This document shows, one piece after another, positions 1 through 52,023 of a stretch of DNA of 58,166 bases. The notes below the pieces were generated by a model that did not search any database, was not told the origin of the DNA, and saw nothing but the letters and a program-made list of their open reading frames with translations. Within the stretch, counting starts at the first letter, position 1. Each line of letters opens with the position of its first letter. Origin of the DNA: a virus (Duplodnaviria; Caudoviricetes). The DNA lies in IMG/VR virus record IMGVR_UViG_3300036944_001184, positions 1-58,166 of that record; one strand, 5' to 3'. The position numbers and the translations under genes were made by a program.

Positions 1-3000
1 AGGAATCACGATTCAGTATGACGAATCAGCAAGGGGGATGATGGTCGCCCGACCCAGTGCTCCTGATACGGTGTTCGTGAATCCGCAGCTGCTCGCCCGG
101 GCGATCGAAGGACTCAGCGAGTTCAACGCCCGTCGCTTTGTGCGCGCCGCAGTCAACCACGAGATCGCCCACCTTGCCGCGTTCAGCGCCTTGTCGGACT
201 CCGACATCGACTACATCGCCCTGAACCTGTCGCCAAGCAAGCTGTGGGAAGTGGCTGACCGCTACTACTCGGCGAGCATCCCGGACGCAGCCACCCGGTT
301 CGAAAGAATCCGGGAAGACCGCGCCGCTGGAAAGCTCAGCATCCGCGAGCTGGCCGACGAGTTCGTCCGCATGGAAATCGAGAAGGCCCGCAGCGGCTTC
401 ATCAGCGAAAGCGACTACTCCTTCTATCGCCGCAACCCCAGCATGCTTTCCCGCATGCTGCGTGCACTCGAAGCGTTCATCGCCAAGCTGACCACCCGCA
501 TCCGCGGCATCGAAGACAGCGAGATCGCCGCCTCGGTTCAGCGCGCCACGCGAGTTTACAACCAGCTGGTGTCGCCTGCCGATCCGACTGGTTTCGAGGA
601 GCAGCTCAACGTGCTCCGCCGTGACGATGTCACCGGACGTTTCAGCCTGCCTGTGAAGAACTACGGCAACAACTCCTACGACGTGGGAGGCAAGTTCAGC
701 CGCCTGTTCAAGGGCGATCTGCCAAGCGCCATCAGGGCGCTGGTCGGAACCCGCGACAACCAACTGCGTCTGGTAGCCCGCATCTCCGAACAGTTCAACA
801 ACCAGATGCAGGCGTTCCGCAAGGCAGGAGTCGTCAACGACGAGAACCTGACGCTGGTTCGCAACGCAATGGGCGACACCGGACTGGTGATCTCCAAGGC
901 GCGCATGGCCCAGATCGAAGCGGTGCTGGATGGTGAGATCACGAACATCGAGAAGACGTTCGAGGATTCCGCGAAGACTGAATCGGACAAACTGATTCAT
1001 GATAAGGGTGTGGAAGAAGCAGCCGCGCGTCATAAGGATCGCGTGATCAAGGAGTATCAGCTGGTCGCCGACAAGGCCCGCGCCGCAGCTGCCGAGGCGA
1101 AAGCCAAGCTGCCACCGAAGGTGGTCAAGGTGATCGAGGACGCACGCGCCGCGATCGACAAGGCTTCCGGAAAGATCGCCACCAACCCGTTCACGCCGGA
1201 TGACATCCGCATCGTGATCGACGCCAACATGGGGATCTACCTGACCCGCTCCTACTACGCCTTCACGCAGACTGGATGGACCAAGCTGCTGAAGTCCGCC
1301 GGTATCGCGCAGGTCGGCAACTCCACGATCGACTTCCAGAAGATCCGCGACAACGCCTTGAAGCATTACACCAACAAGGCCAGCAAGAAACTGGAAGCCG
1401 AGATCAAGAAGGCGCATCCGGAGTTCTCGCCAGCAGAGGTCAAGGCTGCGGTCCTGCGTGACACACCCGCCCGGGCTCAGGTCATGTTCGATGAGTTCGT
1501 CGCCAGCATGGACAAGAATGCAGCGAACCTCGCCACTGGGCAAATCCTCGCAGTGGATGTCGAGAAGGCGCTGTTCGAGGAAGGCTCCACGGAACCAGTG
1601 GTGCGCACTGCTCGGGCCAATGAGCTACGTCAGGAGCTTAGCCGCTTCGCCGAGAAGAAGGAGCTGCCCGAGTGGCTGCGTCAGGCCCTCGGCGAAATCA
1701 CCGACCCGGTTGAAGCAGCTACCCGTTCGCTGATCAGCGTCTCCAAGCTCGCCGCCAATCAGGACCTGCTGACAAGCACGCTTGAAGCTGGGCTTGACGG
1801 AGGCTGGATCACCAAGGACCCGATCGTCGCCGACCAGAAGGGCTACGTCAAACTCTCTGGGGCGAACCCGGCGTACGACGCGCCGCTCGACGGAGCCTAC
1901 GGCCCACCCGAGTTCAAGAAAGCGTTCGATACGATCTTCTCGAAGAGCGCCCCTGAGCTGGAAGACACTGCCGATCAGGCGGTGCGGAACGGTATCAAGG
2001 TCCTGCGTGCAACCGCAGGCGGCGCAATGGCCGCGAAGACCCTGCTGTCGGTCGGCTTCTACTCGCGTAACGCAGTGTCCGACTTCGCCTTCTTCGCCCC
2101 ACTGCAAGGCGTGCTGCTGAACCCGGCCAACGTCAAGCGTTGGTTCCAGTCGAAGGGTGCGGCATTCGCCAAGAGCCCCGGCGAGCATGAGGCTTACATC
2201 CGTGAGCTGATCGAACTGGGCGTGCTTGGCGACGACTCCGGAACACAGGCGCTCCGCGATCAGATCGCAGGATACGCCACGGACGCGGAAGCCACACTCA
2301 ACAAGGTGGAGCGCAGCGCGCTTGCTGCACAGGGCGAAGCCTACTGGAAAAAAGCAGGCGGAGTTCCGGCCAAGATCCTGTCTCTTGGGGCAGACCTGAA
2401 CAACACGCTGTCATCCAACCTCCGCATCGGCATGTTCGAGAACGAGCTTGCAGTTCTGCGCGAAGCCTACAAGGGCGATGAGGCTTGGACGGAGGCACGC
2501 CTGAAAAAGGAAGCCGCCGCGAAAGTCCTGCGCACCACGCAGACTCACTCGCAGGTGTTCCCGGTGGTTACCAGCTTCACCAAGTCCGGTCTCGGTTCCC
2601 TGATCGCGCCGTTCGCCCGCTTCAAGGCGGAGGTCGCCCGCATCATGATCGAGACAGTCAAGCTCGCCAGCGAGGAACGCGCCAGCGACAACGAGGTCAT
2701 CCGCAAGCGGGGCAACCAGCGCCTCCGGGGCTATCTAACCACGCTCACCCTGATGCCACTTACCGTGGCAGGCGTGGTCAGTCTAGCGTTCGCCTTCGCT
2801 TTCGGGGACGACGACGATGTGGCGGAAAACAGCATCCTGAGTTACTTCCTGCCGCGCAACGGCGAGGAGCTTCGCCGTGATCAGGCCCTGCGCGCCGGTC
2901 TTGCCGACTGGCAAAAGGGCAACACGGTCTACTTCACGCAGGTGGGTGACAAGGTCCGCTCGCTGGACATGACCTTCATCAACCCGTTCGCGCTCTACAC

Positions 3001-3799
3001 CGACCCGATCATGCGGTCATATGAACTGATCCGCACCGGCAAGGAAGAGGAGATGCCGAAGGTGTTCTCGAAATGGGTGTCCGGTCAGCTGGTTGGTGAC
3101 CAGATCGCGATTGGTGCGGCGATGGAAGCGTTCAACAACAAGGACGAGAAGGGCAACCCGATCACCACGGAGGACACTCCATTCCTTGAGGCGTTGACCA
3201 CCCGCACCACTTACGCGCTGAGCCAAGGCTACAAGCCCCCGGTAGCCAGCTTCGTGCAGAACTTGGTGTCGGGCGAGAAGGGTTCCCGCAAGCCGGTGAC
3301 CGAAGACGACAAGGCGAGCAACCGCAGCGAGATCCTGCTTGGAGAATTGCTCGGCGTTCGCCCCCGCGTTGACGAGGTCAGCACCTTCTACAACCGGGCG
3401 ATCCGTAGCGCGGCGCTGACCTACTCGCAGTCCCGCCGGGCAACCGGAATCCTGAAGTCCCGCTCGCCGCTTGACGAGGATCAGATCACCGATGCAATTC
3501 AGAAAGCCAACCGCGCGCGGGTCTCCGCGTTCGGCACCGCCGCTGAACTGATGAAGGAGTTCGAGAACATGGAGATGACCCGGGGCCAGCTGATCAGCGC
3601 CGGAACAGACGCCGGGTTCTCCAAGGACCGGTTGAACAAGGCACTCGCCAACAGGACTGATCGCTGGACTCCGTCCCGCGACGACCTGAAGGAAGTCTAT
3701 GACGCGGGCCAAAAGGCGGACGGCAACGGCGCGGGTCGCCTGAAGCGGGTAGTGGCGGAATCGCTGAAGTACCCGGCAGTCCAAGTGCTGAATCCGTGA
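1..3799 (+). CDS. C-terminal part of giant internal virion/ejection protein with an HExxH metallopeptidase-like motif; continues from the ORF at 54910 across the window junction
   Basis: Frame open from base 2 to TGA 3799; motif AVNHEIAHLAAF; Ala/Lys/Glu-rich helical composition; last gene of a virion-protein block, followed by a terminator. Confidence 0.75.
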   Translation, partial: GITIQYDESARGMMVARPSAPDTVFVNPQLLARAIEGLSEFNARRFVRAAVNHEIAHLAAFSALSDSDIDYIALNLSPSKLWEVADRYYSASIPDAATRFERIREDRAAGKLSIRELADEFVRMEIEKARSGFISESDYSFYRRNPSMLSRMLRALEAFIAKLTTRIRGIEDSEIAASVQRATRVYNQLVSPADPTGFEEQLNVLRRDDVTGRFSLPVKNYGNNSYDVGGKFSRLFKGDLPSAIRALVGTRDNQLRLVARISEQFNNQMQAFRKAGVVNDENLTLVRNAMGDTGLVISKARMAQIEAVLDGEITNIEKTFEDSAKTESDKLIHDKGVEEAAARHKDRVIKEYQLVADKARAAAAEAKAKLPPKVVKVIEDARAAIDKASGKIATNPFTPDDIRIVIDANMGIYLTRSYYAFTQTGWTKLLKSAGIAQVGNSTIDFQKIRDNALKHYTNKASKKLEAEIKKAHPEFSPAEVKAAVLRDTPARAQVMFDEFVASMDKNAANLATGQILAVDVEKALFEEGSTEPVVRTARANELRQELSRFAEKKELPEWLRQALGEITDPVEAATRSLISVSKLAANQDLLTSTLEAGLDGGWITKDPIVADQKGYVKLSGANPAYDAPLDGAYGPPEFKKAFDTIFSKSAPELEDTADQAVRNGIKVLRATAGGAMAAKTLLSVGFYSRNAVSDFAFFAPLQGVLLNPANVKRWFQSKGAAFAKSPGEHEAYIRELIELGVLGDDSGTQALRDQIAGYATDAEATLNKVERSALAAQGEAYWKKAGGVPAKILSLGADLNNTLSSNLRIGMFENELAVLREAYKGDEAWTEARLKKEAAAKVLRTTQTHSQVFPVVTSFTKSGLGSLIAPFARFKAEVARIMIETVKLASEERASDNEVIRKRGNQRLRGYLTTLTLMPLTVAGVVSLAFAFAFGDDDDVAENSILSYFLPRNGEELRRDQALRAGLADWQKGNTVYFTQVGDKVRSLDMTFINPFALYTDPIMRSYELIRTGKEEEMPKVFSKWVSGQLVGDQIAIGAAMEAFNNKDEKGNPITTEDTPFLEALTTRTTYALSQGYKPPVASFVQNLVSGEKGSRKPVTEDDKASNRSEILLGELLGVRPRVDEVSTFYNRAIRSAALTYSQSRRATGILKSRSPLDEDQITDAIQKANRARVSAFGTAAELMKEFENMEMTRGQLISAGTDAGFSKDRLNKALANRTDRWTPSRDDLKEVYDAGQKADGNGAGRLKRVVAESLKYPAVQVLNP

Positions 3800-3803
3800 A
3801 CGC

Positions 3804-3842
3804 AAAAAAGCGGCACCCGCCGTGAAGCAGGTGCCGCTTTTG
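3804..3842. terminator. Bidirectional intrinsic terminator between convergent blocks
   Basis: AAAAAAGCGGCACC...GGTGCCGCTTTT hairpin with A-run upstream and T-run downstream. Confidence 0.85.
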
Positions 3843-3869: not shown

Positions 3870-4088
3870 TTAGGGGGTCGCCGCCTCGCAATCAAGCGCA
3901 GCGTCTTCCCATTCGAACCCGAAGGTGGGATCTCGGAAGCGGCGCGCCGCTTCTTTTAGCGCGGAGGCCATCTTTTCACGTTGGCGAAAAGCAGCCCGCA
4001 TCTCCTCGTAGTCCTTGATGTCCACCTCCACGAACCCGAGCCCGGTAATCGCGGCTTGGGATCGGTTGTATTTTTCCCAGTCGATCAC
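3870..4088 (-). CDS. Hypothetical protein (GTG start, MIDWEKYNRS...)
   Basis: Start overlaps stop of the upstream gene (GTGA coupling). Confidence 0.65.
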   Translation of the reverse strand: MIDWEKYNRSQAAITGLGFVEVDIKDYEEMRAAFRQREKMASALKEAARRFRDPTFGFEWEDAALDCEAATP

Positions 4089-4456
4089 AGTGCACCTCCT
4101 AGCGTTTGGAACAGGGCAAGGGCGCGATGTTCGGCGGAGGCATGAGTTACGTGCCAAGCTCCCGGTATTCTTTCTGAACCCGTTGCAAATATCAGCCTCG
4201 CATGGTAAAAAAGCCGCTCTCTTTCGCTAAGAACTTTCTCTGCCACATGACAAGTGTCGAGGCTCGCGAACAGATCCGGTACGTTATGGCGAAACTGGAG
4301 TTCTCCTGCCGGGTCCATCCACCACTTCTCAGGCATGCAGTATCCCTGAGTCCGTGCCGCTGTATCCGGATGGTCGGGTGGACGCCACCCCATTTTAGAG
4401 GCGACGAACTCGTTGATCATCTGTCGCTGATCCAAGGTAAGTGATTCGTGGTTCAT
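4085..4456 (-). CDS. Hypothetical phage protein, resembles phage ABA-sandwich-type proteins; similar to 35959-36330
   Basis: VASKMGW...PDLFASLDTCHVAEKVL...ASAEHRALAL pattern; coupled to neighbours. Confidence 0.55.
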   Translation of the reverse strand: MNHESLTLDQRQMINEFVASKMGWRPPDHPDTAARTQGYCMPEKWWMDPAGELQFRHNVPDLFASLDTCHVAEKVLSERERLFYHARLIFATGSERIPGAWHVTHASAEHRALALFQTLGGAL

Positions 4457-4812
4457 GATTCCTCCTTTCTATTCAGGGTGGCGAGGGCTTCGTCAATGGG
4501 GCCAAGTAGGAGGCAATCATCGCAATCGCATTCGGGTTGGACTCTCCATTCTGCATACTCGTTGCGGATCATCCTCAGCAGGTCCGCCAGATTGTCACAC
4601 TGATTTCGTGTCTCTCGGTAGGCTGACTGCTCGACAACCATCGCGTCAACTACAACAGCGTAGGCAATTCTCGCCTCGTCGCGCTCGCGCACTAACTCGT
4701 TGTGCCGCCCGATCATGTCTTCCAAGGACTCTCGGGTGCAGAGGAACAGGGGGCCGCAGTCCGCGAGTGTCAGCATGCCGTCACGGGATCGGTGAATGGT
4801 TGGCGCGCTCAC
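4453..4812 (-). CDS. Hypothetical coiled-coil protein with CDCDDC motif
   Basis: 119-aa ORF with 4-nt overlaps on both sides. Confidence 0.6.
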   Translation of the reverse strand: MSAPTIHRSRDGMLTLADCGPLFLCTRESLEDMIGRHNELVRERDEARIAYAVVVDAMVVEQSAYRETRNQCDNLADLLRMIRNEYAEWRVQPECDCDDCLLLGPIDEALATLNRKEES

Positions 4813-5534
4813 TTCGCCACCTCCTTCCCGACCACGTAATCCCGCTTGAACGAGAACCCATTCCGGCGACCGTAGAATACCACGGTACCCGGCATCAGGT
4901 TCAACGAACCACTTATCATGTCCACCGAATCGCCTCGACGCAATGCCTCGACGACCTGCTCCTCGTTGCTGTTCCTTGGCCTTCCACTTTTGCCTGACTG
5001 GTAGGTGTAGACCAGATCAGGAGTCAGCCCGGTGGCGTAGGCGATCCCCTCGGCGCTGATGCCAAGACCTTGCAGCCTGCGAATCTCGCCTGCCACCTCC
5101 TTCTTGCGTGCGCTGGAGTGTTTCGGAATCACGATTCCGTTGCGGCTGCACACCTGATAGACGGTCTGTATCTTGACGCCAAGCTCGGCGGCGACTTCTG
5201 GCACAGACTTGCCCTGCTCCAGAAGCGCCTGCATCCGGACGGGTTGCTTGGGTTCCTTGGTGCGGAGCCCGCCCTTCAGCTGGAGGGTGCGTACCCGGGT
5301 CTCGGAGAGGCCAAGAGTCTCGGCGATCTGTTCCTCGGTCTTGCCGTCAAGCATCAGCTTGGCGATCTTCATGGTCTTGTTCGCCGCGTTGGATCGCGCC
5401 TGCGGTGGCATCTTGATGTTGTGGTATCTCATGTGGGCTCGGATGTTTCCTTGGTTGGTGCCGAGTTGTTCGGCGATCTCATTCACTGTGCGTCCTGCGG
5501 ATAGCAGGTTCCTGATAAGGGGTTCGTGTTTCAT
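4809..5534 (-). CDS. Multi helix-turn-helix DNA-binding protein (about 5 tandem HTH units)
   Basis: Repeated motifs GRTVNEIAEQLG, GKTEEQIAETLG, GKSVPEVAAELG, GISAEGIAYATG, GDSVDMISGSLN. Confidence 0.8.
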   Translation of the reverse strand: MKHEPLIRNLLSAGRTVNEIAEQLGTNQGNIRAHMRYHNIKMPPQARSNAANKTMKIAKLMLDGKTEEQIAETLGLSETRVRTLQLKGGLRTKEPKQPVRMQALLEQGKSVPEVAAELGVKIQTVYQVCSRNGIVIPKHSSARKKEVAGEIRRLQGLGISAEGIAYATGLTPDLVYTYQSGKSGRPRNSNEEQVVEALRRGDSVDMISGSLNLMPGTVVFYGRRNGFSFKRDYVVGKEVAK

Positions 5535-9841: not shown

Positions 9842-9925
9842 AATGGTAGTTTGTTTTTGTAGTAGTGGTTTGGGTGTTTTCTGCTGCACCCGCAGCGTCT
9901 TATCCGTTTTTCCGAATAGCGGGGA

Positions 9926-11437
9926 TTACTTGGTGTAGAAGTCCTTCTTCTTGAGGAAGGCAAACAACTCCTTGTAATCCTTGCGCCGCTTGGATACGAA
10001 GTCAAGGAACTTCTCGGGCTCCGCAACATCGCGGTTGCTGGTGGTCGCGGGACTGGTGAAGGCCAGCACCGCTTCGACGAACTCGATGTACCGGATAAAC
10101 GATTCACGAATCAGGGTTCCACGGAACAACCGGAACTCGATCGTCTCGCGGGGCGAGTTGTTGACTGCGTCGTACTTGCGCTCGACTCCGGTCTTCTTGC
10201 CGTTGGTCAGCTTCTTGGTCCGGATCTCCGCGTAGTTGGTGTTGTACCGACCGGACACCTTGGCGACGATCGACCGCATGGAGGGCGAGTTGATCATGAC
10301 AAGGATGCGACCGATCCACAGCGCACTGAGCGGCTTGCGGCTGACGTGGATGTGGACGCCACAGTTGCCACTGTTCCAGCTGGTCAGGTTGCGGCGAACC
10401 CGCGGGTCACTGAGGAACTCCGAGAAGATCCGCTTGTGGACCTCGGGCGCATCGGGGCGGGTGACGATCTCGAAGCCGCCGTCGTTGAGCGAACCGTCCT
10501 CCTTGTAGACCACATACTGGTCAGGGAAGATGGACTCGCACAGCTCGACTCCGTTGTCCGCGTCCCGCCCCTCCACCTCAAGCTCGATGCCGAACTTGAG
10601 CGGCACGTTCTTCTCCGGGCGGAGGTTGGCTGCGGACTTGTCGCTGTAGGACTGGAGCCCGGATGGTGGCGACCAGCAGTTGGTGCAGTTGCCGTCCTCG
10701 GCGTAGTCGTCATTGCTGAACCGCTCGCCGCAGCAGTCGCAGATGAACGTCTCATCGTTGAGCCAGTCACGGCAGTACCAGTCGCCGCACCACTCCTCCA
10801 TCTCGTCGATGAAGTAAGCCTCGTTGGTGCCGTAGCAGTAGGCGACGATGTCATCGTCCGCCCAGCAGTCGTAGTTCTCCATGTAGGTGTAGCCGTCCTC
10901 CGGTTGCTCGGTCACCCATTCGCCACCGCTGCGGCGATCGTAGTAGTTGTAAACGAGGCGGAAGCAGTTGCTCTTCAGGTGGTTCTCTCCGTCAATTTCA
11001 ACAGTCATGGTCTTTGGGTAGTAGTTGGTTTCTTCGTCAAGGGTAACTTCAACAGCATCACTTTTCAGGATTCGTGATCCGTTAAGAGTGATTACTGATA
11101 GGGATTCGTGAACCCACTCGCCGCTTGTGAGGCGCATGTAGTCGCCCGGAATGTCAGAGTCAGGCACAGTAACCAAGCGCACGCTGGTCAAGTGGTCCCA
11201 GTTCCAACCACGGAATACTCTCTGGAAGCTTTCCGTAGTCTCTTCGTCGTACCCGGCGTGTCTCGCGCCTTCCAAGTCCACGAGCTGGACCCCGAAGTTT
11301 TCGATATCCGCCACGCGGACCTTGATGCGTTTGATTATACTGAGGGTCCGGAAGTCCATCTCGATGATGTCTCCCACTTGAACGCGCTTGCCAGTGTTGG
11401 TGTCAATCCATGCTTTCATATCAGTATGTTGTTTCAA
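9926..11437 (-). CDS. Amidoligase (COOH-NH2 ligase family) paralog B with acidic Cys-rich N-terminal region
   Basis: KFGIELEVE, EDGSL, GGFEIVTRP, CGVHIHV, KYDAVN, TIEFRLFRGT; CDCC...CTNC before the ligase domain. Confidence 0.85.
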   Translation of the reverse strand: MKQHTDMKAWIDTNTGKRVQVGDIIEMDFRTLSIIKRIKVRVADIENFGVQLVDLEGARHAGYDEETTESFQRVFRGWNWDHLTSVRLVTVPDSDIPGDYMRLTSGEWVHESLSVITLNGSRILKSDAVEVTLDEETNYYPKTMTVEIDGENHLKSNCFRLVYNYYDRRSGGEWVTEQPEDGYTYMENYDCWADDDIVAYCYGTNEAYFIDEMEEWCGDWYCRDWLNDETFICDCCGERFSNDDYAEDGNCTNCWSPPSGLQSYSDKSAANLRPEKNVPLKFGIELEVEGRDADNGVELCESIFPDQYVVYKEDGSLNDGGFEIVTRPDAPEVHKRIFSEFLSDPRVRRNLTSWNSGNCGVHIHVSRKPLSALWIGRILVMINSPSMRSIVAKVSGRYNTNYAEIRTKKLTNGKKTGVERKYDAVNNSPRETIEFRLFRGTLIRESFIRYIEFVEAVLAFTSPATTSNRDVAEPEKFLDFVSKRRKDYKELFAFLKKKDFYTK

Positions 11438-11445
11438 TTCAGGTA

Positions 11446-11628
11446 TCAGTTCCAGTCAGGGTGAATCTCTCCGCTCTCGGTGACGATCACGGATTGCTTT
11501 TCATGAAGCAGAATCTCCGCATCGGGAGACAGCTTCGGCATGCGGGGTTCGCTGACCCGGCGACCGGCTTGGTCACGGGCAGTGGTGGTGCCGTTGTCGG
11601 CGCGGGTGATGTGGATGAATGGTTTCAT
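11446..11628 (-). CDS. Small hypothetical protein
   Basis: 60-aa ORF directly downstream of a palindrome copy. Confidence 0.6.
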   Translation of the reverse strand: MKPFIHITRADNGTTTARDQAGRRVSEPRMPKLSPDAEILLHEKQSVIVTESGEIHPDWN

Positions 11629-11657
11629 TGTGTTGCTATTCGTTTTATCGGATAAGG

Positions 11658-13028
11658 TCAGGCATCGTTGTGGATCTCGCGATCCTCTGTGTGCATCCGG
11701 AAGCTCCGCGATGGGTCCATCACATCGCGGAACAACTTGTCCGCTGCTATCTCATCCTCCGCTTCGAGGAAGTAGTGCCGCACCTCGGTGATGCGGTACT
11801 TCAACTTCGGGGCAGGGGGTGGTGGGGCAGGCGAAGCCGGGGCGGGTGCTGGCATCGGGAATGCGGGGCGAGCCGCCCGGGGTGTTGCGGGCTGCTGGGC
11901 GCGCGCTTCCTGGTGAATGCGAGAGTGGACGCCTTGCCAGTAATCGTGTCCCTCGGGAGATGCGCCCCAGCTGAAGCCACGACCCAGCGCATCCGATGCG
12001 GAGGTCGCCGCGCCGTCACTTCGGTAGTGCCAGTTTCCGCTCTGGCTTGCCATGTGTCCAAGCGCCACCTCTGACTCAGGAATCGTGTGCAACCATTCCT
12101 CAATCGTGGTTGGCTGGATCTCTTCGACCAGATCGAAGTCGAAGTCACCCGGAGGATTCCACCTACCACGCTCGGTGAACGTCCTGTCCGTTCCGCCTAG
12201 GCGGGCTTCGAACTTGAAGAAGCTGTCCACCCGGGAGGGTGGGAGGCTGCGCATGTATCCGGTTGTCTGCCCATCCCGAGTCCGGTATCGGTAACCCGGT
12301 CTGACGCGGAACTCGCCGAGGGGTGCCGGGGTAGCGGGCGCAGCTGGCGAGGTGAGCAGGTTGCCGTGTTCGTCGCAGGGATCGCAAGACCTGTGAGCCA
12401 TGTCCGCCCGATTAAAACAGGAGCTTACCCAACGGGAACCGGGTTCCCCCCTCGTCTCACCGTTCCCCGATTCAGGCATCCGCCATACCCGATTCGTGAT
12501 TCGGGATCTGAAGTACAGGAACTCCGGTTGAGTGGTTACTGGTTCGGGTTCGGGAGCAGGAGCGAAAGCAGGTTCCGGGGTAAGCGATTCGTGATTCGTG
12601 GTGGGGAAGTACTCGGTCACATTGGCGAGCCCCCAAGTGGATTCGACCATGTCGTGGAGGTTCATGATCGACGCAACCCATGTGCGCCCACCGTCTTCAG
12701 ACCGCCAGCAATCGGTGTCATCAGTCGGGTCACCGGTTACCCGGGTGCGGTAGTGGTCTCCGTTCTGGTGTCTGAAATACCGGTGGGTAGGAGCGGGATC
12801 AGGTGTCGGTTCATTAGCAGGCTCTTCGCCCGGGATAGGTGGGAGTTCGCCAAGGGACACGGCCCGCCAGAAGTCATGCCCCTCAGGGGAATCCTCCCAA
12901 ACGAATCCGGTCACGAATGAATCACGCAGGCCGACGCATTCATCGACCAAGGTCCGGGCTGAGCTGTTGTCGATCGCCCGCTCCATGTAAGCGGCGGGCA
13001 GGGTTTCAAACCATTGTTGTCTCGTCAT
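11658..13028 (-). CDS. Mosaic multidomain protein with a duplicated GFxWxxSPEGHDxW domain and Pro-rich linkers
   Basis: GFVWEDSPEGHDFWRAV near N-term and GFSWGASPEGHDYWQGV near C-term; start MTRQQWFE. Confidence 0.75.
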   Translation of the reverse strand: MTRQQWFETLPAAYMERAIDNSSARTLVDECVGLRDSFVTGFVWEDSPEGHDFWRAVSLGELPPIPGEEPANEPTPDPAPTHRYFRHQNGDHYRTRVTGDPTDDTDCWRSEDGGRTWVASIMNLHDMVESTWGLANVTEYFPTTNHESLTPEPAFAPAPEPEPVTTQPEFLYFRSRITNRVWRMPESGNGETRGEPGSRWVSSCFNRADMAHRSCDPCDEHGNLLTSPAAPATPAPLGEFRVRPGYRYRTRDGQTTGYMRSLPPSRVDSFFKFEARLGGTDRTFTERGRWNPPGDFDFDLVEEIQPTTIEEWLHTIPESEVALGHMASQSGNWHYRSDGAATSASDALGRGFSWGASPEGHDYWQGVHSRIHQEARAQQPATPRAARPAFPMPAPAPASPAPPPPAPKLKYRITEVRHYFLEAEDEIAADKLFRDVMDPSRSFRMHTEDREIHNDA

Positions 13029-13039
13029 TTTCGTAGGAG

Positions 13040-13270
13040 TTAGAGTTCGATGAGGGTGTGGCGGGATTCGACAGGCGAGCCGCAAGCGGTGCCGTCTTGG
13101 TTGTACCAAGTGTTGTTGTCGCCAAGGTAGGTGGTGATTCCACCGTAGCTGGACGAGGTGACGATGGTGACCTGCTCACCTTGACGGTTGCGATAGACGC
13201 GACCGAGGATGGGTGAGGCAGGGGAGGACTGGTCGAGTGTGACCAAGGCGAGTTGGATGTTGGTTTTCAT
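13040..13270 (-). CDS. Hypothetical protein (MKTNIQLAL...)
   Basis: ATG immediately follows a palindrome copy; GRVYRNRQGEQVTI resembles the GYRYRTRDGQTT segment of the 11658 gene. Confidence 0.65.
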   Translation of the reverse strand: MKTNIQLALVTLDQSSPASPILGRVYRNRQGEQVTIVTSSSYGGITTYLGDNNTWYNQDGTACGSPVESRHTLIEL

Positions 13271-13314
13271 ATTCGTTTTATCGGATAAGCCTGCTTCTGC
13301 CGCAGGCGAGGGCA

Positions 13315-13734
13315 TCAGTCGATGGAAAGGTCAGGGTTAGGGATTTCGGGAAGGCCCCATCCAAGGAGGTCCGTGAGGCTCATGGTGTCTTCATACCACT
13401 CGGACTCGCTGTGGTCCCGCGCCTCCACCACGCCGGATGGGTGTACCCGCCATGTAGCCTCCTCATTTTGAAAATACCGGTAAGCGGGTTCCTGATCGGG
13501 ATTAGCCAGCAAGGCGAGAGCCGCCCGGATGGCGGTCACGCCGGTCACGACAGACGGATCATAGTCGTCCAGCGGACCCTCCAAACTTGAGATGGACTCA
13601 TCGGAGCCGTCGCTGCCTACTTCAATGTCCGTATAGCGGATGAACCCGACCAGCCCGGAAATGATTTCCAGCGGGGTGAGGTTGCCTGCTTCTGCCGCAG
13701 GCTCGGCTTCTTTTGGTTTGCAGTGTTTGCACAT
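13315..13734 (-). CDS. Hypothetical protein
   Basis: 139-aa ORF; C-terminal YRYFQN...WRV segment resembles YFR segments of the 11658 gene. Confidence 0.6.
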   Translation of the reverse strand: MCKHCKPKEAEPAAEAGNLTPLEIISGLVGFIRYTDIEVGSDGSDESISSLEGPLDDYDPSVVTGVTAIRAALALLANPDQEPAYRYFQNEEATWRVHPSGVVEARDHSESEWYEDTMSLTDLLGWGLPEIPNPDLSID

Positions 13735-13740
13735 GGTGTT

Positions 13741-13896
13741 TCAGTGGAGGGAGATCAGGATATAGAGGATGGCGAGCATCGCAAGGGCGAAGACCCCGGC
13801 GAGCAGAGATTCCCGAATCCGGAATCCTGCTGCCATGAAAGCGGCAGGGGTTCCGAGAAGGGCGCAGGCGATTGCGGTTTCGATTGCGTAGTTCAC
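13741..13896 (-). CDS. Small two-TM membrane protein (GTG start)
   Basis: Hydrophobic ORF starting just downstream of a palindrome copy. Confidence 0.55.
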   Translation of the reverse strand: MNYAIETAIACALLGTPAAFMAAGFRIRESLLAGVFALAMLAILYILISLH

Positions 13897-13921
13897 GTTA
13901 TTCGTTTTTCCGGATAAGGGT

Positions 13922-14125
13922 TTAGATTCTCTTTGATTCAATGATGCCAGCATGCCGACCAAGGGTATCCCGGTCGGTCATCGGGTTCAGCCCCCAATGA
14001 ATGGCGACTTTCTTCTTCGCGGCTTCGTAGCTTTCGGCTTCGTAGCTTTCGGCTTCGAGCACCACGGTGTCGTGCATGTAGGCGTTGTTGACTCCTCCGT
14101 AGAGGTGGGCGACGTAGGTCTTCAT
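13922..14125 (-). CDS. Hypothetical protein (MKTYVAHLYGG...)
   Basis: ORF with a 15-bp tandem duplication (EAESYEAESYE). Confidence 0.6.
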   Translation of the reverse strand: MKTYVAHLYGGVNNAYMHDTVVLEAESYEAESYEAAKKKVAIHWGLNPMTDRDTLGRHAGIIESKRI

Positions 14126-14126
14126 G

Positions 14127-14258
14127 TTATTTGGTTGGTTTGTAGAGAACCACATCCCGCCCGAGAACCGGGCAAGGTGCGGCGAGTTTGGGGAGAGCCT
14201 TGCGCGAGGCGAGGTAACGGATGGCTGCGTCGATGGACGCTTGTTGCTGTGGGTTCAT
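14127..14258 (-). CDS. Small hypothetical protein (43 aa, MNPQQQASID...)
   Basis: Hand-translated; fills the gap between a palindrome and the next ATG. Confidence 0.5.
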   Translation of the reverse strand: MNPQQQASIDAAIRYLASRKALPKLAAPCPVLGRDVVLYKPTK

Positions 14259-14306
14259 GGTGAGAGGGAATCCCTTATCCGTTTTACCGGATAAGGGATA
14301 AGTGGT

Positions 14307-14471
14307 TTAGATAGCAGGGATTGGTGTGATCTGGATAAGCCCACCCTTGAGGGTGGACACCTTGAATACCGTTCTAACTAGCTGAATACTAGTTAGAACG
14401 TGGAGTGGATCGGCAGACCAGATGATGGCTGGCTTGCCGCTGCGGAGTTGGGCGAGGGCTTGGTTTTTCAC
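14307..14471 (-). CDS. Possible 54-aa protein (GTG start) between two palindromes
   Basis: Open frame fits the cassette, but contains strong hairpins. Confidence 0.4.
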   Translation of the reverse strand: MKNQALAQLRSGKPAIIWSADPLHVLTSIQLVRTVFKVSTLKGGLIQITPIPAI

Positions 14472-14518
14472 TTTGTTATTTGGTTTCGGGTTGGGCTTAT
14501 CCGTTTTACCGGGTAAGG

Positions 14519-15529
14519 TTAGCGGCCTGCCTCCAGTGCGGCGACACGCGCGGCGAGGGATTCAAGGGTGACCGGCTCAGGCTCAGGTGTGGGCTCGGGC
14601 TTCTCCTCAGGAATCCCGGTCTCGACCAAGGTTCCGAAGCAAATGGTTCCTGATTCGAGACGCCCGCAAGTGATAAGTGATTCCTCCAGTGTTGGGTTTC
14701 GCCACAGGCAAAGGCCAGCAAAGATGCGAAGTGCCGAGGCGAGGGCTAGCGTGCAAGTAATTGAGAAGCCTGCTTTGATGCCGGAGCCTGCTTTGATGCC
14801 CTCGCCTGCTTCGATGCCCTCGCCTGCTTCGATGCCCTCGCCTGCTTTGATGCCCAAGCCTGCTTTGATGCCCTCGCCTGCTTTGATGCCCAAGCCTGCT
14901 TCGATGCCCTCGCCTGCTTCGATGCCCCAGCCTGCTTCGATGCCCTCGCCTGCTTTGATGCCCTCGCCTGCTTTGATGCCGGAGCCTGCTTTGATGCCCT
15001 CGCCTGCTTCGATGCCCTCGCCTGCTTCGATGCCCTCGCCTGCTTTGATGCCCCAGCCTGCTTCGATGCCGGAGCCTGCTTTGATGCCCTCGCCTGCTTT
15101 GATGCCCAAGCCTGCTTCGATGCCCTCGCCTGCTTCGATGCCCCAGCCTGCTTCGATGCCCCAGCCTGCTTCGATGCCGGAGCCTGCTTTGATGCCCTCG
15201 CCTGCTTTGATGCCCAAGCCTGCTTTGATGCCGGAGCCTGCTTTGATGCCCCAGCCTGCTTCGATGCCCCAGCCTGCTTCGATGCCGGAGCCTGCTTTGA
15301 TGCCCTCGCCTGCTTCGATGCCGGAGCCTGCTTTGATGCCGGAGCCTGCTTTGATGCCGGAGCCTGCTTGAGCACGGATAAACCCTTTCGCGGATAATGA
15401 ACCAGAGAACCGGACGTATCCCATATCGGGGGCGATGTCGATGTTTCCGTCATAGTCATTGACGGGGGTTGCTCCGATGTAAAGGTTGTCGGAGTTGAGG
15501 TCTGCTTTGGTGATGAGTAGTGTTTTCAT
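14519..15529 (-). CDS. Hexapeptide-repeat (GI[K/E]AG[S/E/W/L]) protein, probable beta-solenoid
   Basis: 33 tandem hexapeptides flanked by unique N- and C-terminal caps. Confidence 0.85.
   Translation of the reverse strand: MKTLLITKADLNSDNLYIGATPVNDYDGNIDIAPDMGYVRFSGSLSAKGFIRAQAGSGIKAGSGIKAGSGIEAGEGIKAGSGIEAGWGIEAGWGIKAGSGIKAGLGIKAGEGIKAGSGIEAGWGIEAGWGIEAGEGIEAGLGIKAGEGIKAGSGIEAGWGIKAGEGIEAGEGIEAGEGIKAGSGIKAGEGIKAGEGIEAGWGIEAGEGIEAGLGIKAGEGIKAGLGIKAGEGIEAGEGIEAGEGIKAGSGIKAGFSITCTLALASALRIFAGLCLWRNPTLEESLITCGRLESGTICFGTLVETGIPEEKPEPTPEPEPVTLESLAARVAALEAGR
14767..15369 (-). repeat. 18-bp tandem repeat, about 33 units
   Basis: GGCATC[A/G]AAGCAGGC[TCC/GAG/TGG/TTG] on the minus strand. Confidence 0.95.
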
Positions 15530-15662
15530 TTGGATAAGGTGCCCCGCGTTTCTGCTGCTATGGGTGATGGCTTCGGTTTATGGGAGAGCTTATCCGTTTT
15601 ACCGGATAAGCGGAGAACGATTCAGGAATAAGGAAACCCTTATCCGTTTTACCGGATAAGGG

Positions 15663-15866
15663 TTATGCTGTCCAAGAATAGCGGCCACCGTTGAATCCGG
15701 TGCGGCGAATGCGGTCATTGCAAGGGTTGTCCGTGCATTCGCCCCGGTAATACCAGACCGTTTGGCCCAGACCGTTCGGAGTCTTGCCCTTGGTTACGTC
15801 ACGGGCGATGAACTCCTTGCCATAGTTGCGGACGACTTGGCCTTCTTTGAGTGTGCTTGATTTCAT
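15663..15866 (-). CDS. Small basic hypothetical protein
   Basis: 67-aa ORF bracketed by palindromes. Confidence 0.7.
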   Translation of the reverse strand: MKSSTLKEGQVVRNYGKEFIARDVTKGKTPNGLGQTVWYYRGECTDNPCNDRIRRTGFNGGRYSWTA

Positions 15867-15971
15867 GATTCGTGGTAAGTGATTCGTTATTCGTTTTAAC
15901 GGATAAGGGATTCGGGATAAGTGAAGCAGGGCTTACCCGATAAAACGGATAAGCCCTGCTATAGTTAATCC

Positions 15972-16412
15972 TCACGCCATCAGCGCGGCAAGGAGTTCCT
16001 TAACCTGAGTCTTTGTAAGCGAAATCGCAAGTGCTGCTTTTCCAACACTTTCGAGTTGTGCTTCAGAGAACTTCACCTTAGCCTTGCGGGGACGCGGCGC
16101 GCTCTTCCGGAGCACGAAGTCATCCGACACGTCGCGGAGGATGTCCGACATGTAGGTCCGGGAATACCCGCCCTTTTCAGCGGCAGCAAGCGCCGCGTTC
16201 CGGAACTCAAGGACGCCGTGACGCTTCACGCTTCCGTCTTCGTTGTAGTACGTCCAATGTTCTTCGCCCCCATCCTTGGACACGATAAAGGAAAGCCACG
16301 CTTCCCCGAGGATGTTAACAAGCTTGCGCTCTTCCTTGTCGATGACAGCAAGCTGTCCAGTGATAAGGGCGGCAAGGGTTTTGACGAGGGCGGAGTTGAT
16401 TTCGTTTTTCAT
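15972..16412 (-). CDS. Hypothetical protein, first gene of the early block (MKNEINSA...)
   Basis: ATG preceded by an A/C-rich leader; followed by a long hairpin at 15925-15960. Confidence 0.7.
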   Translation of the reverse strand: MKNEINSALVKTLAALITGQLAVIDKEERKLVNILGEAWLSFIVSKDGGEEHWTYYNEDGSVKRHGVLEFRNAALAAAEKGGYSRTYMSDILRDVSDDFVLRKSAPRPRKAKVKFSEAQLESVGKAALAISLTKTQVKELLAALMA

Positions 16413-17057
16413 TTGGTTTGGTTTGTTGGAAAGAAAGGCGTCATTGCCTCTCACATAGGGGGGAGGGACGGGGGTCTGGGAACCACGAATCACGAACCAC
16501 TTATCCGGGAAAGCGGATAGCGTTGCCCCTGATACGGGATACGTGATTCATGGTTCATGGTGAGGGGCGGCGGTGGGTAGTGGACTTTTTCTGCTGCGTT
16601 GTGTTGTGTTGTGTATATAGCTTGCAAAAAATTTCTCTGAATTTGGCGGATAAATTTATGGGTATGATTTGCTCAATAACGCGGCAAAAATCTTGAGCGA
16701 CATCTGGCTCAGGCGAGGTCGGTAGGCGAGCATGAAAACGGGGCGAATTTGACCCCGAAGCGGGGGTCCCGAGACGCGAAAAATGACCCGTTTTTGCGCC
16801 TGTTTTGACCCCTATTTCGCCGGTTTCTATTGTCCTACGTGGGACATTTAGAATGTAGATATCTGTTAAATGGAAAGTTATTCGTGGTAAGTTATTCATG
16901 GCTAGTGTTGCGGAAATAATCCGAGACTTAAATATAAATGGGTCGTTGGATATTTGGCCAACACGGCTCTCTAACAGAAAAGGTATTTTTGTCCTAGGCG
17001 AGAGGGTGCCCGGAGGCGAGTAAACCGCTCAACCCGTAGCAAAAGGCTTATGAAATA

Positions 17058-17181
17058 GAGCATTAGATTAGCGACACTACACGCTGTCTCCTAAAAAGAA
17101 TAAGAGACTACGCACATGTGTACACGTACATGTAATCTTTTTCCTTCCTCTATCGTAGTGACGGGAAAATAATGCCCAGTT
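17058..17181. repeat. ~120-bp element, copy 1 (direct repeat of 50965-51087) with terminal inverted repeats
   Basis: ATTAGATTAGC..CACTACACGCT.TCTCCT.AAAAGAATAAGAGACTACGCACATGT...TCTTTTTCCTTCCTCTAT.GTAGTGACG shared by both copies. Confidence 0.9.
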
Positions 17182-18209: not shown

Positions 18210-18443
18210 ATGAACCCCGAATCACTTACCCCTAACCCCCTACCCGATCCCGAGCATCCGATCGACAAGATCTTCCGAGAGACCGCGGAGGCATTCCAAG
18301 CCGCCTACGACAAAGCCTACGAAACAGACTGCCGCAAGATTTACGCCATGCTCGACGCTGAGTGCGAAGAGCTGCCCATCCCCACCCTGTACACCGGGAA
18401 AGTCGCTTGGATCAACCCGATACCCTTTATCCCCGAACCATGA
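18210..18443 (+). CDS. Hypothetical protein
   Basis: 77-aa ORF coupled to the next gene. Confidence 0.55.
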   Translation: MNPESLTPNPLPDPEHPIDKIFRETAEAFQAAYDKAYETDCRKIYAMLDAECEELPIPTLYTGKVAWINPIPFIPEP

Positions 18444-51948: not shown

Positions 51949-52023
51949 TGCGGGGAGAGTGCTGGTTCTCCCGGGGTCTCATAAGCCGCCGTGACGCGAG
52001 TTCGATTCTCGCCCCCGTAACCA
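51949..52023 (+). tRNA. tRNA with CAT anticodon (Met/fMet or Ile2), atypical D arm
   Basis: TGCGGGG/CCCCGTA acceptor + A + CCA; loop CTCATAA; T arm GCGAG-TTCGATT-CTCGC. Confidence 0.8.

What the first reader, a model, noticed from the sequence alone, without database searches (positions are those of the whole stretch)
9899..16520. A 22-bp palindrome punctuates the early genes like cassette boundaries
Seen: CTTATCCG-TTTTAC-CGGATAAG and variants occur about 11 times (~9899, 11636, 13271, 13898, 14274, 14496, 15589, 15639, 15887, 15932, 16500), always intergenic, typically just after a stop and in some cases directly abutting the next start (13271, 13898). I saw none outside this block. The asymmetric core points the same way in nine copies and is reversed in the last two. 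Several copies extend the stem with different flanking pairs (ATCC/GGAT at 14270, AACC/GGTT at 15635, AGCAGGG/CCCTGCT at 15925), which favours a hairpin function over simple sequence recognition. Inference: possible roles are hairpin promoters or operators for a phage protein, RNA processing sites, or attC-like recombination sites that let single-gene cassettes be gained and lost. No recombinase is evident, so the mechanism could be new.
Basis: partly seen in the sequence, partly recalled or inferred. Interest (0 to 1): 0.85.

Follow-up and report, generated by a model that had tools for sequence, protein, structure and literature searches.

The report
Recombination-site palindromes bounding phage gene cassettes
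A 22-base palindrome repeated between the early genes of an uncultured phage has the same sequence and layout as the end palindrome of a family of bacterial mobile elements, which suggests that these genes are swapped in and out as cassettes.

Summary
CTTATCCG-N6-CGGATAAG occurs 11 times in 9899-16521 (12 hits at up to 3 mismatches, 0.08 expected). All 11 lie between minus-strand genes; nine point one way and two the other.

Relatives carry the same array. Two have the same arms. Others have their own inner arms: CTTATTAG, GTTAACCG, CTTAGTGC or CTTAGCCC, CTTGTCCG. The spacer is 6 nt in every genome but one. Homology between relatives breaks exactly at the motif at three of the ten junctions compared with G001, and genes between motifs are replaced, gained or lost.

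The exact palindrome also sits beside three tandem tyrosine-recombinase genes (recombinase-in-trio, RIT-like) in several bacterial phyla. Three of five named RIT trios carry CTTAT-N3-N6-N3-ATAAG upstream of ritA.

No recombinase was found in the window or its two closest complete relatives.

Best reading (about 0.45): orphan RIT-type recombination core sites that make the early region a cassette array, with the enzyme supplied in trans.

Rivals: RNA punctuation hairpins (a subset have extended stems), or operators for a phage DNA-binding protein.

No RNA or binding data exist, and the host is unknown. I class it as a new variant of a known kind.

The parts
16500..16521 (-). Copy 1 (gene strand GCTATCCG-CTTTCC-CGGATAAG). 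The spacer is reversed. It lies in the leader between the conserved promoter-like stretch and the first gene.
15932..15953 (-). Copy 2. The spacer is reversed. The stem is extended by AGCAGGG/CCCTGCT (15925-15960). It lies 18 nt after the stop of gene 15972-16493.
   Evidence: RNAfold -28.8 kcal/mol
15886..15907 (-). Copy 3, start-proximal type (3' arm CGAATAAC), 19 nt before the ATG of gene 15663-15866.
   Evidence: A relative in runs X3/X4 has a 28-nt insertion here that adds a partial copy.
15639..15660 (-). Copy 4, perfect core, stem extended by AACC/GGTT, 2 nt after the stop. It is the only copy that passes the terminator-like scan.
15589..15610 (-). Copy 5, perfect core, 28 nt after copy 4 with no gene between. 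G001 has a gene between the two homologous copies.
14496..14517 (-). Copy 6, 1 nt after the stop of the hexapeptide-repeat gene 14519-15529.
14274..14295 (-). Copy 7, perfect core, stem extended by ATCC/GGAT, with an adjacent extra half-site (GGATAAG GGATAAG on the plus strand).
13897..13918 (-). Copy 8, start-proximal type. The GTG start abuts it. Against G001 the upstream 60 nt are 49% alike, the motif is 22/22 identical, and the downstream 60 nt are 95% alike.
   Evidence: loose ends of relatives' contigs at 13884-13924
13268..13289 (-). Copy 9, start-proximal type. The ATG overlaps its last 3 nt. A 19-nt direct repeat lies beside it.
11635..11656 (-). Copy 10, start-proximal type, 1 nt after a stop and 6 nt before an ATG. 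Against G001 the upstream 60 nt are 53% alike, the motif is 21/22 identical, and the downstream 60 nt are 86% alike.
9899..9920 (-). Copy 11 (gene strand GCTATTCG-GAAAAA-CGGATAAG), 5 nt after the stop of the amidoligase-like gene 9926-11437. It is the last copy of the array.
9926..16493 (-). The gene units bounded by the copies: 15972-16493; 15663-15866; 14519-15529; 14307-14471; 14127-14258 with 13922-14155; about 13741-13896 with 13315-13734; 13040-13270 with 11658-13028; 11446-11628 with 9926-11437.
16625..16660 (-). A stretch conserved in three genomes (TTCAGA-16 nt-TATATA on the gene strand), with one TTATCCG half-site just upstream (16647-16653). It is a possible early promoter, read by eye only.
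   Evidence: not reported by the sigma-70 scan

Best explanation
[quoted passage not shown] Each has two inverted 8-bp recombinase-binding arms (outer CTTAT/ATAAG, inner bases specific to the lineage) around a 6-bp crossover spacer.

Strung between the early ORFan genes, they turn that region into a cassette array. Recombination at or in these sites exchanges, inserts or removes one- or two-gene units, while the mostly direct orientation keeps gene direction intact. The phage encodes no tyrosine recombinase, so the enzyme would have to come in trans from a RIT-type element of the host or a co-resident element.

Shown: the array and its statistics; its conservation, with lineage-specific arms, across a phage clade; mosaic junctions exactly at the sites; sequence and layout identical to palindromes beside RIT-like trios.

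Inferred: that a RIT-type recombinase binds and cuts the phage sites; that it acts in trans; that cassette turnover is site-specific rather than short-homology recombination.

The copies with GC-rich extended stems may also fold in the mRNA and act as attenuators or 3'-end hairpins.
For: (1) Array. 11 copies against 0.08 expected, all intergenic.

(2) Spacer. In W, G001, G006, G002 and G004, scans with spacers of 0-14 nt found no real copy with another spacing. The G008 and G009 families also fit a 6-nt spacer. More than 15 spacer sequences occur, mostly A/T-rich and often themselves palindromic.

(3) Clade. G001 has 10 copies in the syntenic block and G006 has 10, with arms CTTATTAG or CTTATCAG. 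G002 has 11, G009 has 10 (GTTAACCG), G008 has 8 in two arm types, and G010 has 4 (CTTGTCCG). Over 59 copies from 6 genomes, 74.4% of cells are paired against 59.3 +/- 1.1 in shuffles. 123 cells show a change on both sides against 56.6 in shuffles. Only the TA/AT columns are invariant.

(4) Junctions. Compared with G001, copy 13897 has 49% identity upstream, 22/22 in the motif and 95% downstream. Copy 11635 has 53%, 21/22 and 86%. Copy 15639 has 48%, 21/22 and 67%. Unrelated 60-mers average 49%. Genes between motifs are replaced (15663-15866 against G001 50599-50800), present or absent, or differ in repeat number. Contigs of a third relative skip 15662-15874.

(5) Hybrid site. G006 41195 reads GCTATCCG-GAAAAC-CTAATAAG, a window-type left arm and a G006-type right arm, at the edge of an extra gene.

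(6) RIT link. Of 142 loci with the exact palindrome, 12 have a tyrosine recombinase within 4 kb and 8 have two or more in tandem. All 9 trio ORFs tested hit Pfam Phage_integrase. Those ends also carry extra half-sites, 4-6 bp of variable complementary flank, and A/T-rich or palindromic spacers.

Named RIT trios carry the same layout upstream of ritA (0.00 expected in each locus):
- Phaeobacter inhibens pP92_f: CTTATGCC-GACATC-GGCATAAG
- Rhodococcus opacus pLP414: CTTATGTG-GAGTTC-CACATAAG
- Marinobacter nauticus pMAQU02: CTTATGTG-GAGCTC-CACATAAG
Against: No tyrosine recombinase was found in the window, G001, G006, G002, G004, G007 or G008 (my own HMM at E up to 0.01; Pfam on the window's larger ORFs). 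G009 and G010 each have one, far from their arrays.

According to the passages I read of PMC10214605, RIT transposition has never been reproduced in the laboratory. Action in trans is unknown.

130 of the 142 palindrome loci have no recombinase within 4 kb, and many look like ordinary hairpins. Two of five named RIT trios (Cupriavidus necator pHG1, Rhizobium lusitanum) show no such palindrome in the stretch fetched.

The gene present in G001 but absent from the window has its end points 21 nt after copy 4 and about 5 nt before copy 5, not in a spacer. A natural 395-nt deletion used a 19-nt direct repeat beside copy 9. Ordinary short-homology recombination is therefore at work here too.

Break points of blastn blocks lie within 25 nt of a motif in only 3-4 of 10 cases (my own count).

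The start-abutting copies recur in all three close genomes, which hints at a role in expression.

The host is unknown. 0 of 400 further genomes of one candidate phylum hold the palindrome.
Confidence: 0.45

Rival explanations
1. RNA punctuation hairpins. The elements fold in the polycistronic early mRNA right after each stop codon. There they attenuate read-through, are processing sites, or protect 3' ends, like REP elements, T7 RNase III sites or the stem-loop part of PeSLs. Their repetition makes them passive hot spots for homologous recombination. On this reading the likeness to RIT ends is coincidence.
For: Eight of the 11 copies sit 1-25 nt after a stop.

Eleven of 42 copies have 3 or more extra complementary pairs, with at least 7 different flank sequences. 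The four flank pairs are paired in 42.7% of cells against 30.6 +/- 2.9 in shuffles, and 0 of 500 shuffles reach that. Seven of 8 G008 copies have long GC-rich stems.

Sense-strand fold energies of -14 to -29 kcal/mol were found for four window copies.

Unrelated hairpins occupy equivalent places in G006 (after the first gene) and in G002 and G010.

Extended stems occur only in copies 15 nt or more from the next start: 0 of 12 start-abutting copies have one.
Against: Four window copies, and their G001 counterparts, cannot fold on the mRNA strand (-0.1 to -2.7 kcal/mol).

Non-Watson-Crick core cells show no sense-strand G.U excess: 15 sense G.U, 22 antisense, 27 other.

Only 1 of 11 copies passes the terminator-like scan. 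The phage does use a canonical U-tract terminator at 3806-3842.

A structural hairpin does not explain the identical arms in genomes whose core proteins are only 30-39% identical, the fixed 6-nt spacer, or spacers that are themselves palindromic. No Rfam family matches.
Confidence: 0.2
2. Operators for a dimeric phage DNA-binding protein. Candidates are the five-HTH protein 4809-5534 and the HTH protein 48267-48821. The protein would bind each copy to shut off or time early transcription, as with L5 stoperators or the ESAS repeats of Cluster K phages. The arms co-evolve with the protein in each lineage.
For: The sites have dyad symmetry with a fixed 6-bp A/T-rich spacer. Arms are lineage-specific and change symmetrically.

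Copies with non-complementary arms keep recognisable half-sites.

In G002 an HTH gene is flanked by two copies, with its ATG abutting one. It is weakly similar to window 48267-48821 (E 0.009).

The five-HTH protein is 52% identical between the window and G006 (54% in the three-way alignment), where replication, portal, terminase and major structural proteins are mostly 79-93% identical.

In ESAS repeats the left repeat is also closer to the consensus, the consensus differs between subclusters, and the right repeat can abut the start codon (passages of PMC3203893 and PMC12699233).
Against: G008 has two arm types in one genome. G010 has a 4-nt spacer. A duplex-binding protein does not explain the variable complementary flanks.

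No promoter-like signal lies at the copies. No homologue of the five-HTH protein was seen in the fragments G002 and G004.

Other early-region proteins are equally diverged between the window and G006 (50-72%), so the HTH protein's divergence is not special.
Confidence: 0.2
3. DNA-hairpin promoters for a virion-injected RNA polymerase, as in N4.
For: A 4002-aa virion-type ORF exists, and its two ends lie at the window's two ends. In two copies the hairpin centre lies 9-11 nt from a start codon.
Against: The giant ORF hits ART-PolyVal and weakly SprT. It hits no polymerase family in Pfam or PHROGs and has no PDB relative. A regex for polymerase catalytic motifs found none (a weak test). In G002, G009 and G010 the copies lie 30-70 nt from the starts.
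Confidence: 0.03
4. Integron-type attC sites used by an integron integrase.
For: The cassette-like layout. In one Planctomycetales MAG the palindrome lies 75-170 nt from a tyrosine-recombinase gene.
Against: The sites have no R''/L''/L'/R' boxes and no GTTRRRY. They are 22 bp, not 57-141 bp. No IntI is present in the phage. The attC features are recalled from my own knowledge.
Confidence: 0.02

Closest known systems
[quoted passage not shown]
   Same: The 22-bp sequence is identical to that beside RIT-like trios in Clostridia, Ruminococcus, a Bacteroidales-like locus and others. Three of five named RIT trios have the same 8-6-8 layout with outer CTTAT/ATAAG and lineage-specific inner bases. 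Both have variable complementary flanks, extra half-sites and A/T-rich or palindromic spacers. The literature reports terminal inverted repeats or palindromes at RIT ends (passages of PMC10214605 and PMC5737581).
   Different: The phages with the window's arm types carry no ritA/B/C. They have ten or eleven solo sites in an array between genes, rather than one per element end. The sequence of RIT ends is my own finding on a few loci. I did not see it stated in the passages I read. Ricker et al. 2013 is not in the library.
PeSL (promoter-early stem-loop) cassettes of T4-type phages
   Same: They are repeated intergenic motifs that flank ORFans in plastic early regions. Indels and replacements between close relatives end at them. 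They contain a stem-loop (PMC2839356 abstract and section 13; PMC4122927 abstract).
   Different: In PeSLs the conserved part is a sigma-70 promoter and the stem sequences vary. Here the stem itself is conserved, no promoter signal is seen, and the genes lack Shine-Dalgarno sites.
ESAS/SAS repeats of Cluster K mycobacteriophages
   Same: They are imperfect inverted repeats next to start codons of non-structural genes. The left repeat is closer to the consensus, the consensus differs between subclusters, and the right repeat sometimes touches the start codon. Their function is still untested (PMC3203893 and PMC12699233 passages).
   Different: ESAS repeats are 17 bp with a variable 4-13 bp spacer and are tied to a 13-bp SAS. 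Here the arms are 8 bp, the spacer is fixed, and there is no SAS.
Integron attC cassette arrays
   Same: Single-gene cassettes are each bounded by an imperfect palindromic site used by a tyrosine recombinase. The cassettes mostly point one way.
   Different: The sites have no attC boxes and are much shorter, with no integrase and no attI or Pc platform in the phage (recalled features).
Stoperators of Cluster A mycobacteriophages; REP elements; T7 early RNase III sites
   Same: All are many copies of one short element in short intergenic gaps of one transcription unit. They act as roadblocks (stoperators; PMC9283540 abstract) or as mRNA hairpins (REP, T7; recalled).
   Different: Stoperators are asymmetric 13-bp sites bound by a monomeric repressor. 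REPs need a RAYT and occur in hundreds of copies in host genomes. RNase III sites are longer and not sequence-conserved.

Membership tests
RIT-element terminal palindrome | 8-6-8 dyad with outer CTTAT...ATAAG and complementary inner bases | tested here: met
   for the phage. for RIT-like and named RIT loci. Two of five named trios lack it.
RIT-element terminal palindrome | Lies next to three tandem, overlapping tyrosine-recombinase genes | tested here: not met
   No tyrosine recombinase in the window, G001 or G006.
RIT-element terminal palindrome | Accessory half-sites beside the palindrome | tested here: inconclusive
   Extra GGATAAG at 14296 and about 15914. A (CCCTTAT)n run in G001. Four solo half-sites lie in or near the block where about 0.6 is expected. 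No fixed arrangement.
RIT-element terminal palindrome | Bound and recombined by RitA/B/C | not testable with these tools
   RIT transposition has not been reproduced in the laboratory (PMC10214605 passage).
Integron attC | R''-L''...L'-R' boxes with GTTRRRY, 57-141 bp, a cognate IntI | tested here: not met
   Sequence read. No integrase. The defining features are recalled.
PeSL | Sigma-70 early promoter inside the repeat | tested here: not met
   3 promoter-like sites against 3.4 expected, none at a copy.
PeSL | Indel and replacement end points at the repeat | tested here: met
Intrinsic terminator | GC-rich hairpin followed by a U tract | tested here: not met
   Only 1 of 11 copies (15639) passes. 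A canonical one exists at 3806-3842.
N4-type hairpin promoter | Virion RNA polymerase encoded by the phage | tested here: inconclusive
   No polymerase family or motif in the 4002-aa ORF. No fold search was done.
Known RNA families (Rfam 15) | Match at gathering score | tested here: not met

The most novel reading that the evidence does not exclude
A clade of phages with no integrase of its own runs an integron-like cassette system for its early genes, which are probably host-takeover or anti-defence genes. It does so by borrowing the recombinases of RIT transposons resident in its hosts. Each cassette ends in a RIT core site, and the arm sequence tracks the RIT type of the host. This would also give the first defined substrates for RIT recombination.
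Probability: 0.25. Interest if true: 0.85.

Novelty: new variant of a known kind. Interest (0 to 1): 0.65.

Why it matters
If the sites are used by RIT-type recombinases, this would be a phage-borne cassette array serviced by a host transposon's enzymes. That is a new route for rapid turnover of early genes.

It would also give a minimal 22-bp substrate for a widespread family of mobile elements whose mechanism has never been shown.

If they are regulatory instead, they add a well-defined, clade-wide case to the small set of repeated intergenic phage motifs of unknown function (PeSL, ESAS). The lineage-specific arms would be suited to swap experiments.

Tried and rejected
**Close relatives.** A megablast of the block against the phage collection found nothing.

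**Host search.**
None is related to the phage by tblastx.
- 65 of the 120 have a stem extension of 4 bp or more, or at least two extra half-sites. 16 of the 120 have at least two extra half-sites.
- 0 of 400 further genomes of G012's phylum hold the exact palindrome.
- The three MAGs that have it hold only 1-3 sites at up to 2 mismatches.
- The host remains unknown.

**Other collections.**
- The metagenome-contig search with alignment A1 found no relative.
- A viral scan for the G006-type arms gave only single, unrelated hits plus G006 itself.
- The start-type pattern found only G001 and one unrelated contig.

**RNA evidence.** No RNA holder is listed for this DNA. Reads laid were DNA contigs only.

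**Promoters.** The sigma-70 promoter scan showed no enrichment.

**Giant ORF.**
- Pfam, PHROGs and PDB sequence searches showed no polymerase.
- The search for homologous proteins timed out and I did not repeat it.

**Other clade members.**
- G007 (39% GC) showed no repeated palindrome family.
- G011 was only pattern-searched.

**Not run.**
- Structure prediction, complex prediction, the protein atlas and the representative search were not used. None could test DNA or RNA binding.
- Supplementary files of the RIT papers were not opened. They may list RIT end sequences.

Full report
**What the window is.** It is a whole IMG/VR virus record of 58,166 bp, linear and estimated 93% complete. It encodes a family A DNA polymerase, a DUF5906 primase-helicase, a helicase, a PD-(D/E)XK nuclease and a large terminase. 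The two ends of a giant ORF lie at the two ends of the window. That ORF is 4002 aa in the complete relative G001 and carries an ART-PolyVal domain. Only 9 of 36 gene starts have anything like a Shine-Dalgarno site. The host is unknown.

**The observation.**
- CTTATCCG-N6-CGGATAAG matches 12 times at up to 3 mismatches, against 0.08 expected.
- Eleven matches lie in 9899-16521. The twelfth (23635, 3 mismatches) is inside a coding ORF and is probably chance.
- The genes of the block are on the minus strand. On that strand the consensus reads CTTATCCG-GTAAAA-CGGATAAG.
- Every copy is intergenic. Eight sit 1-25 nt after a stop codon. Two (15589, 15886) follow another copy in the same gap. One (16500) sits in the leader upstream of the first gene.
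- The next start lies from -3 to 109 nt downstream of the copies other than copy 1 (16500). It abuts or overlaps the motif at 13897 and 13268.
- Nine copies share one spacer orientation and two (15932, 16500) are reversed.

**Two forms of the copy.**
- Four copies (15932, 15639, 15589, 14274) fold strongly on the mRNA strand, at -15 to -29 kcal/mol.
- Four start-proximal copies (15886, 13897, 13268, 11635) share a G-to-A change in the 3' arm and barely fold on that strand, at -0.1 to -2.7 kcal/mol.
- Stem extension of 3 bp or more occurs in 11 of 42 copies from four genomes, with at least seven different flank sequences. It occurs in none of the 12 copies that abut a start.
- On 41 aligned copies, the four pairs just outside the core are paired in 42.7% of cells, against 30.6 +/- 2.9 in shuffles (0 of 500 reach it) and 24-37% when slid.
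- Non-Watson-Crick core cells show no sense-strand G.U excess: 15 sense, 22 antisense, 27 other.
- Only copy 15639 passes a terminator-like scan, and sigma-70-like sites are not enriched.
- The phage has a canonical U-tract terminator at 3806-3842.
- No Rfam family matches.

**Close relatives.**
- G001 is complete and 81-98% identical in nucleotides across the aligned blocks. It has 10 copies in the syntenic block.
- G006 is complete. Its replication, portal, terminase and major structural proteins are mostly 79-93% identical to the window's, while tail, accessory and early-region proteins range from 43% to 78%. It has 10 copies with changed arms, CTTATTAG or CTTATCAG with CTAATAAG or CTGATAAG.
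- G002 and G004 are fragments whose core proteins are only 30-39% identical to the window's. They have the window's exact arms with spacer GAATTC or a near variant. G002 has 11 copies, 0-25 nt after stops, each followed by a 30-70 nt A/C-rich leader.

**More distant clade members.** A portal-based search found five more. None has CTTAT...ATAAG at up to one mismatch. A de novo scan showed their own families in blocks of small genes:

| Genome | Motif | Copies |
|---|---|---|
| G009 | GTTAACCG-N6-CGGTTAAS | 10 |
| G008 | CTTAGTGC-AAGCTT-GCACTAAR | 5 |
| G008 | CTTAGCCC-ATCGGT-GGGCTAAG | 3 |
| G010 | CTTGTCCG-AATT-CGGACAAG (4-nt spacer) | 4 |
| G007 | none seen | 0 |

- Most G008 copies have long GC-rich outer stems.
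- G011 was only pattern-searched.
- In the window, G001, G006, G002 and G004, no real copy has a spacer other than 6 nt.
- Over 59 copies from six genomes, 74.4% of cells pair (59.3 +/- 1.1 in shuffles; 28-39% when slid).
- In the same set, 123 cells show changes on both sides (56.6 in shuffles). Only the TA/AT columns never vary.
- These cells are not independent events.

**Cassette behaviour.** The block reads as units bounded by copies.
- Gene 15663-15866 is replaced by unrelated genes in G001 and G006.
- A gene present between two copies in G001 and G006 is missing in the window, where copies 4 and 5 stand 28 nt apart.
- Gene 14307-14471 is replaced in G001.
- G006 has further extra genes.
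- The repeat gene 14519-15529 is 336 aa here, 116 aa in G001, and a pentapeptide-repeat gene in G006.

In 60-nt flanks compared with G001:

| Copy | Upstream identity | Motif | Downstream identity |
|---|---|---|---|
| 13897 | 49% | 22/22 | 95% |
| 11635 | 53% | 21/22 | 86% |
| 15639 | 48% | 21/22 | 67% |

Unrelated 60-mers average 49%, with a maximum of 61%.

- G006 41195 is a hybrid site, with a window-type left arm and a G006-type right arm, at the edge of an extra gene.
- Contigs of a third relative, from two runs, skip 15662-15874. They carry an extra partial copy at 15892 and diverge at 13884-13924.

Against a strictly site-specific mechanism:
- The missing gene's end points lie 21 nt after copy 4 and about 5 nt before copy 5.
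- A 395-nt deletion in that third relative used a 19-nt direct repeat.
- Only 3-4 of 10 blastn block ends lie within 25 nt of a copy (my count).

**The link to recombinase-in-trio elements.**
- Among the bacterial loci that hold the exact palindrome, several showed the same picture: three tandem ORFs of about 404, 330-349 and 338-348 aa, then extra half-sites, then the palindrome.
- All 9 trio ORFs tested hit Pfam Phage_integrase.
- With an HMM built from ten such ORFs, 12 of 142 palindrome loci have a tyrosine recombinase within 4 kb, and 8 have two or more in tandem.
- The other 130 have none, and many look like ordinary hairpins.
- The palindrome occurs on the ritA side in some loci and on the ritC side in others.
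- Those ends also carry 4-6 bp of variable complementary flank, and spacers such as AATATT, ATTAAT, AAATTT and GAGCTC.

Of five named RIT trios fetched from plasmids, three carry one exact CTTAT-N12-ATAAG match each, in every case an 8-6-8 palindrome upstream of ritA (0.00 expected per locus):
- Phaeobacter inhibens pP92_f: CTTATGCC-GACATC-GGCATAAG
- Rhodococcus opacus pLP414: CTTATGTG-GAGTTC-CACATAAG
- Marinobacter nauticus pMAQU02: CTTATGTG-GAGCTC-CACATAAG, about 780 nt upstream

Cupriavidus necator pHG1 and Rhizobium lusitanum show none in the stretch fetched.

From the passages I read:
- RIT elements have three tyrosine recombinases and terminal inverted repeats.
- They carry 47-51 bp imperfect palindromes at their ends.
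- They have never been seen to transpose in the laboratory (PMC10214605, PMC5737581, PMC3414803, PMC8138268).
- I did not see the end sequence itself in print. Ricker et al. 2013 is not held, and supplements were closed.

**No recombinase in the phage.**
- Pfam on the window's larger ORFs and my HMM on all ORFs of 100 aa or more found none in the window, G001, G006, G002, G004, G007 or G008.
- G009 and G010 each have one tyrosine recombinase, far from their arrays. Its similarity to a RitB-like protein is weak.

**Reading.**
- The identical arms, the fixed 6-bp spacer and the conserved outer bases with lineage-specific inner bases are all shared with RIT-type end palindromes. So are the variable flanks, the extra half-sites, and spacers that are A/T-rich or often palindromic.
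- A fixed spacer between two inverted arms is the usual anatomy of a tyrosine-recombinase core site (established knowledge).
- With the mosaic junctions and the hybrid site, I take the most likely explanation to be orphan RIT-type core sites that make the early region a cassette array served by an enzyme in trans (0.45).
- The subset with extended stems probably also folds in the mRNA.
- The main rivals are RNA punctuation hairpins (0.2) and operators for a phage HTH protein (0.2).
- For the operator reading, the five-HTH protein 4809-5534 is 52% identical between the window and G006 (54% in the three-way alignment). Other early proteins are as diverged.
- Hairpin promoters and attC sites are unlikely.

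**Novelty.** Repeated intergenic motifs that mark plastic phage regions are known: PeSL and ESAS. RIT elements are known too. An array of solo RIT-type palindromes bounding phage genes, conserved across a clade with lineage-specific arms and no recombinase, is a new variant of a known kind. I found no paper describing it in four searches.

Noticed in passing
window 51351-51387 (+): Rfam abiF RNA motif at 47.2 bits (gathering score 37), just downstream of the terminase gene. A tRNA-Met lies nearby at 51949-52023.
   Followed up: no
window 2-3799 and 54910-58164 (+); L028 7775-19783: The window's two end ORFs are the two ends of one giant ORF. It is 4002 aa in the complete relative G001, with an ART-PolyVal domain, a weak SprT hit and two HExxH motifs. 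The window lacks about 5.5 kb of its middle.
   Followed up: partly
window 14519-15529 (-): A hexapeptide-repeat gene (AGxGIx units), 336 aa here and 116 aa in G001. In G006 a pentapeptide-repeat gene sits behind the same leader. In two marine or seawater runs many other contigs piled up on this repeat.
   Followed up: partly
window 15860-15885, 16480-16500, 12490-12600; L034 8560-8650: Heptamer CACGAAT(C) occurs in tandem beside several copies and inside gene 11658-13109. The same words encode the N-terminus MNHESLT of 4085-4456 and MNPESLT of 18210-18443.
   Followed up: no
L029 10180-10230 (G001 about 50180-50230): A tandem run of about six CCCTTAT units, which repeat the motif's 5' arm, lies directly upstream of one copy.
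   Followed up: no
window 13289-13307 and 13684-13702: A 19-nt direct repeat sits beside copy 9 and inside gene 13315-13734. Contigs from two microbial-mat runs carry the 395-nt deletion between the two repeats.
   Followed up: partly
window about 17077-17162: A stretch of about 60 nt with a palindrome (ATGTACGTGTACACATGTGCGT) is nearly invariant in three genomes. It lies in the divergent non-coding region between the early block and gene 17227.
   Followed up: no
window 4809-5534 (-): A 241-aa protein made of five tandem helix-turn-helix units. The first two units are the most diverged between the window and G006.
   Followed up: partly
window 46498-47040 (-) and 45706-46137 (-): A HAD_SAK_2 domain (RNA-repair 'Swiss army knife' proteins, E 4e-29) and a weak DUF1599 hit (nucleotide-modification associated).
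   Followed up: no
L011 2257-2445: In a provirus-labelled contig, two copies of TTATCCGAAATTTCGGATAAGATAAG lie 167 nt apart. They sit just upstream of two tandem tyrosine-recombinase genes and before an RHS-like gene, a layout like an invertible promoter.
   Followed up: partly
L226 3013-3034 and L227 3113-3134 (G014): A Planctomycetales MAG holds two copies of an element end. Each has the palindrome flanked by direct GGGATAAG half-sites, 75-170 nt from a tyrosine-recombinase gene. Homology between the two copies stops about 95 nt beyond the palindrome.
   Followed up: partly
L007, L009, L012-L014, L016, L019-L026: Fourteen viral contigs share one copy of CTTATCCG-CTTTAT-CGGATAAG in an identical AT-rich context. 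They look unrelated to the window's clade.
   Followed up: no
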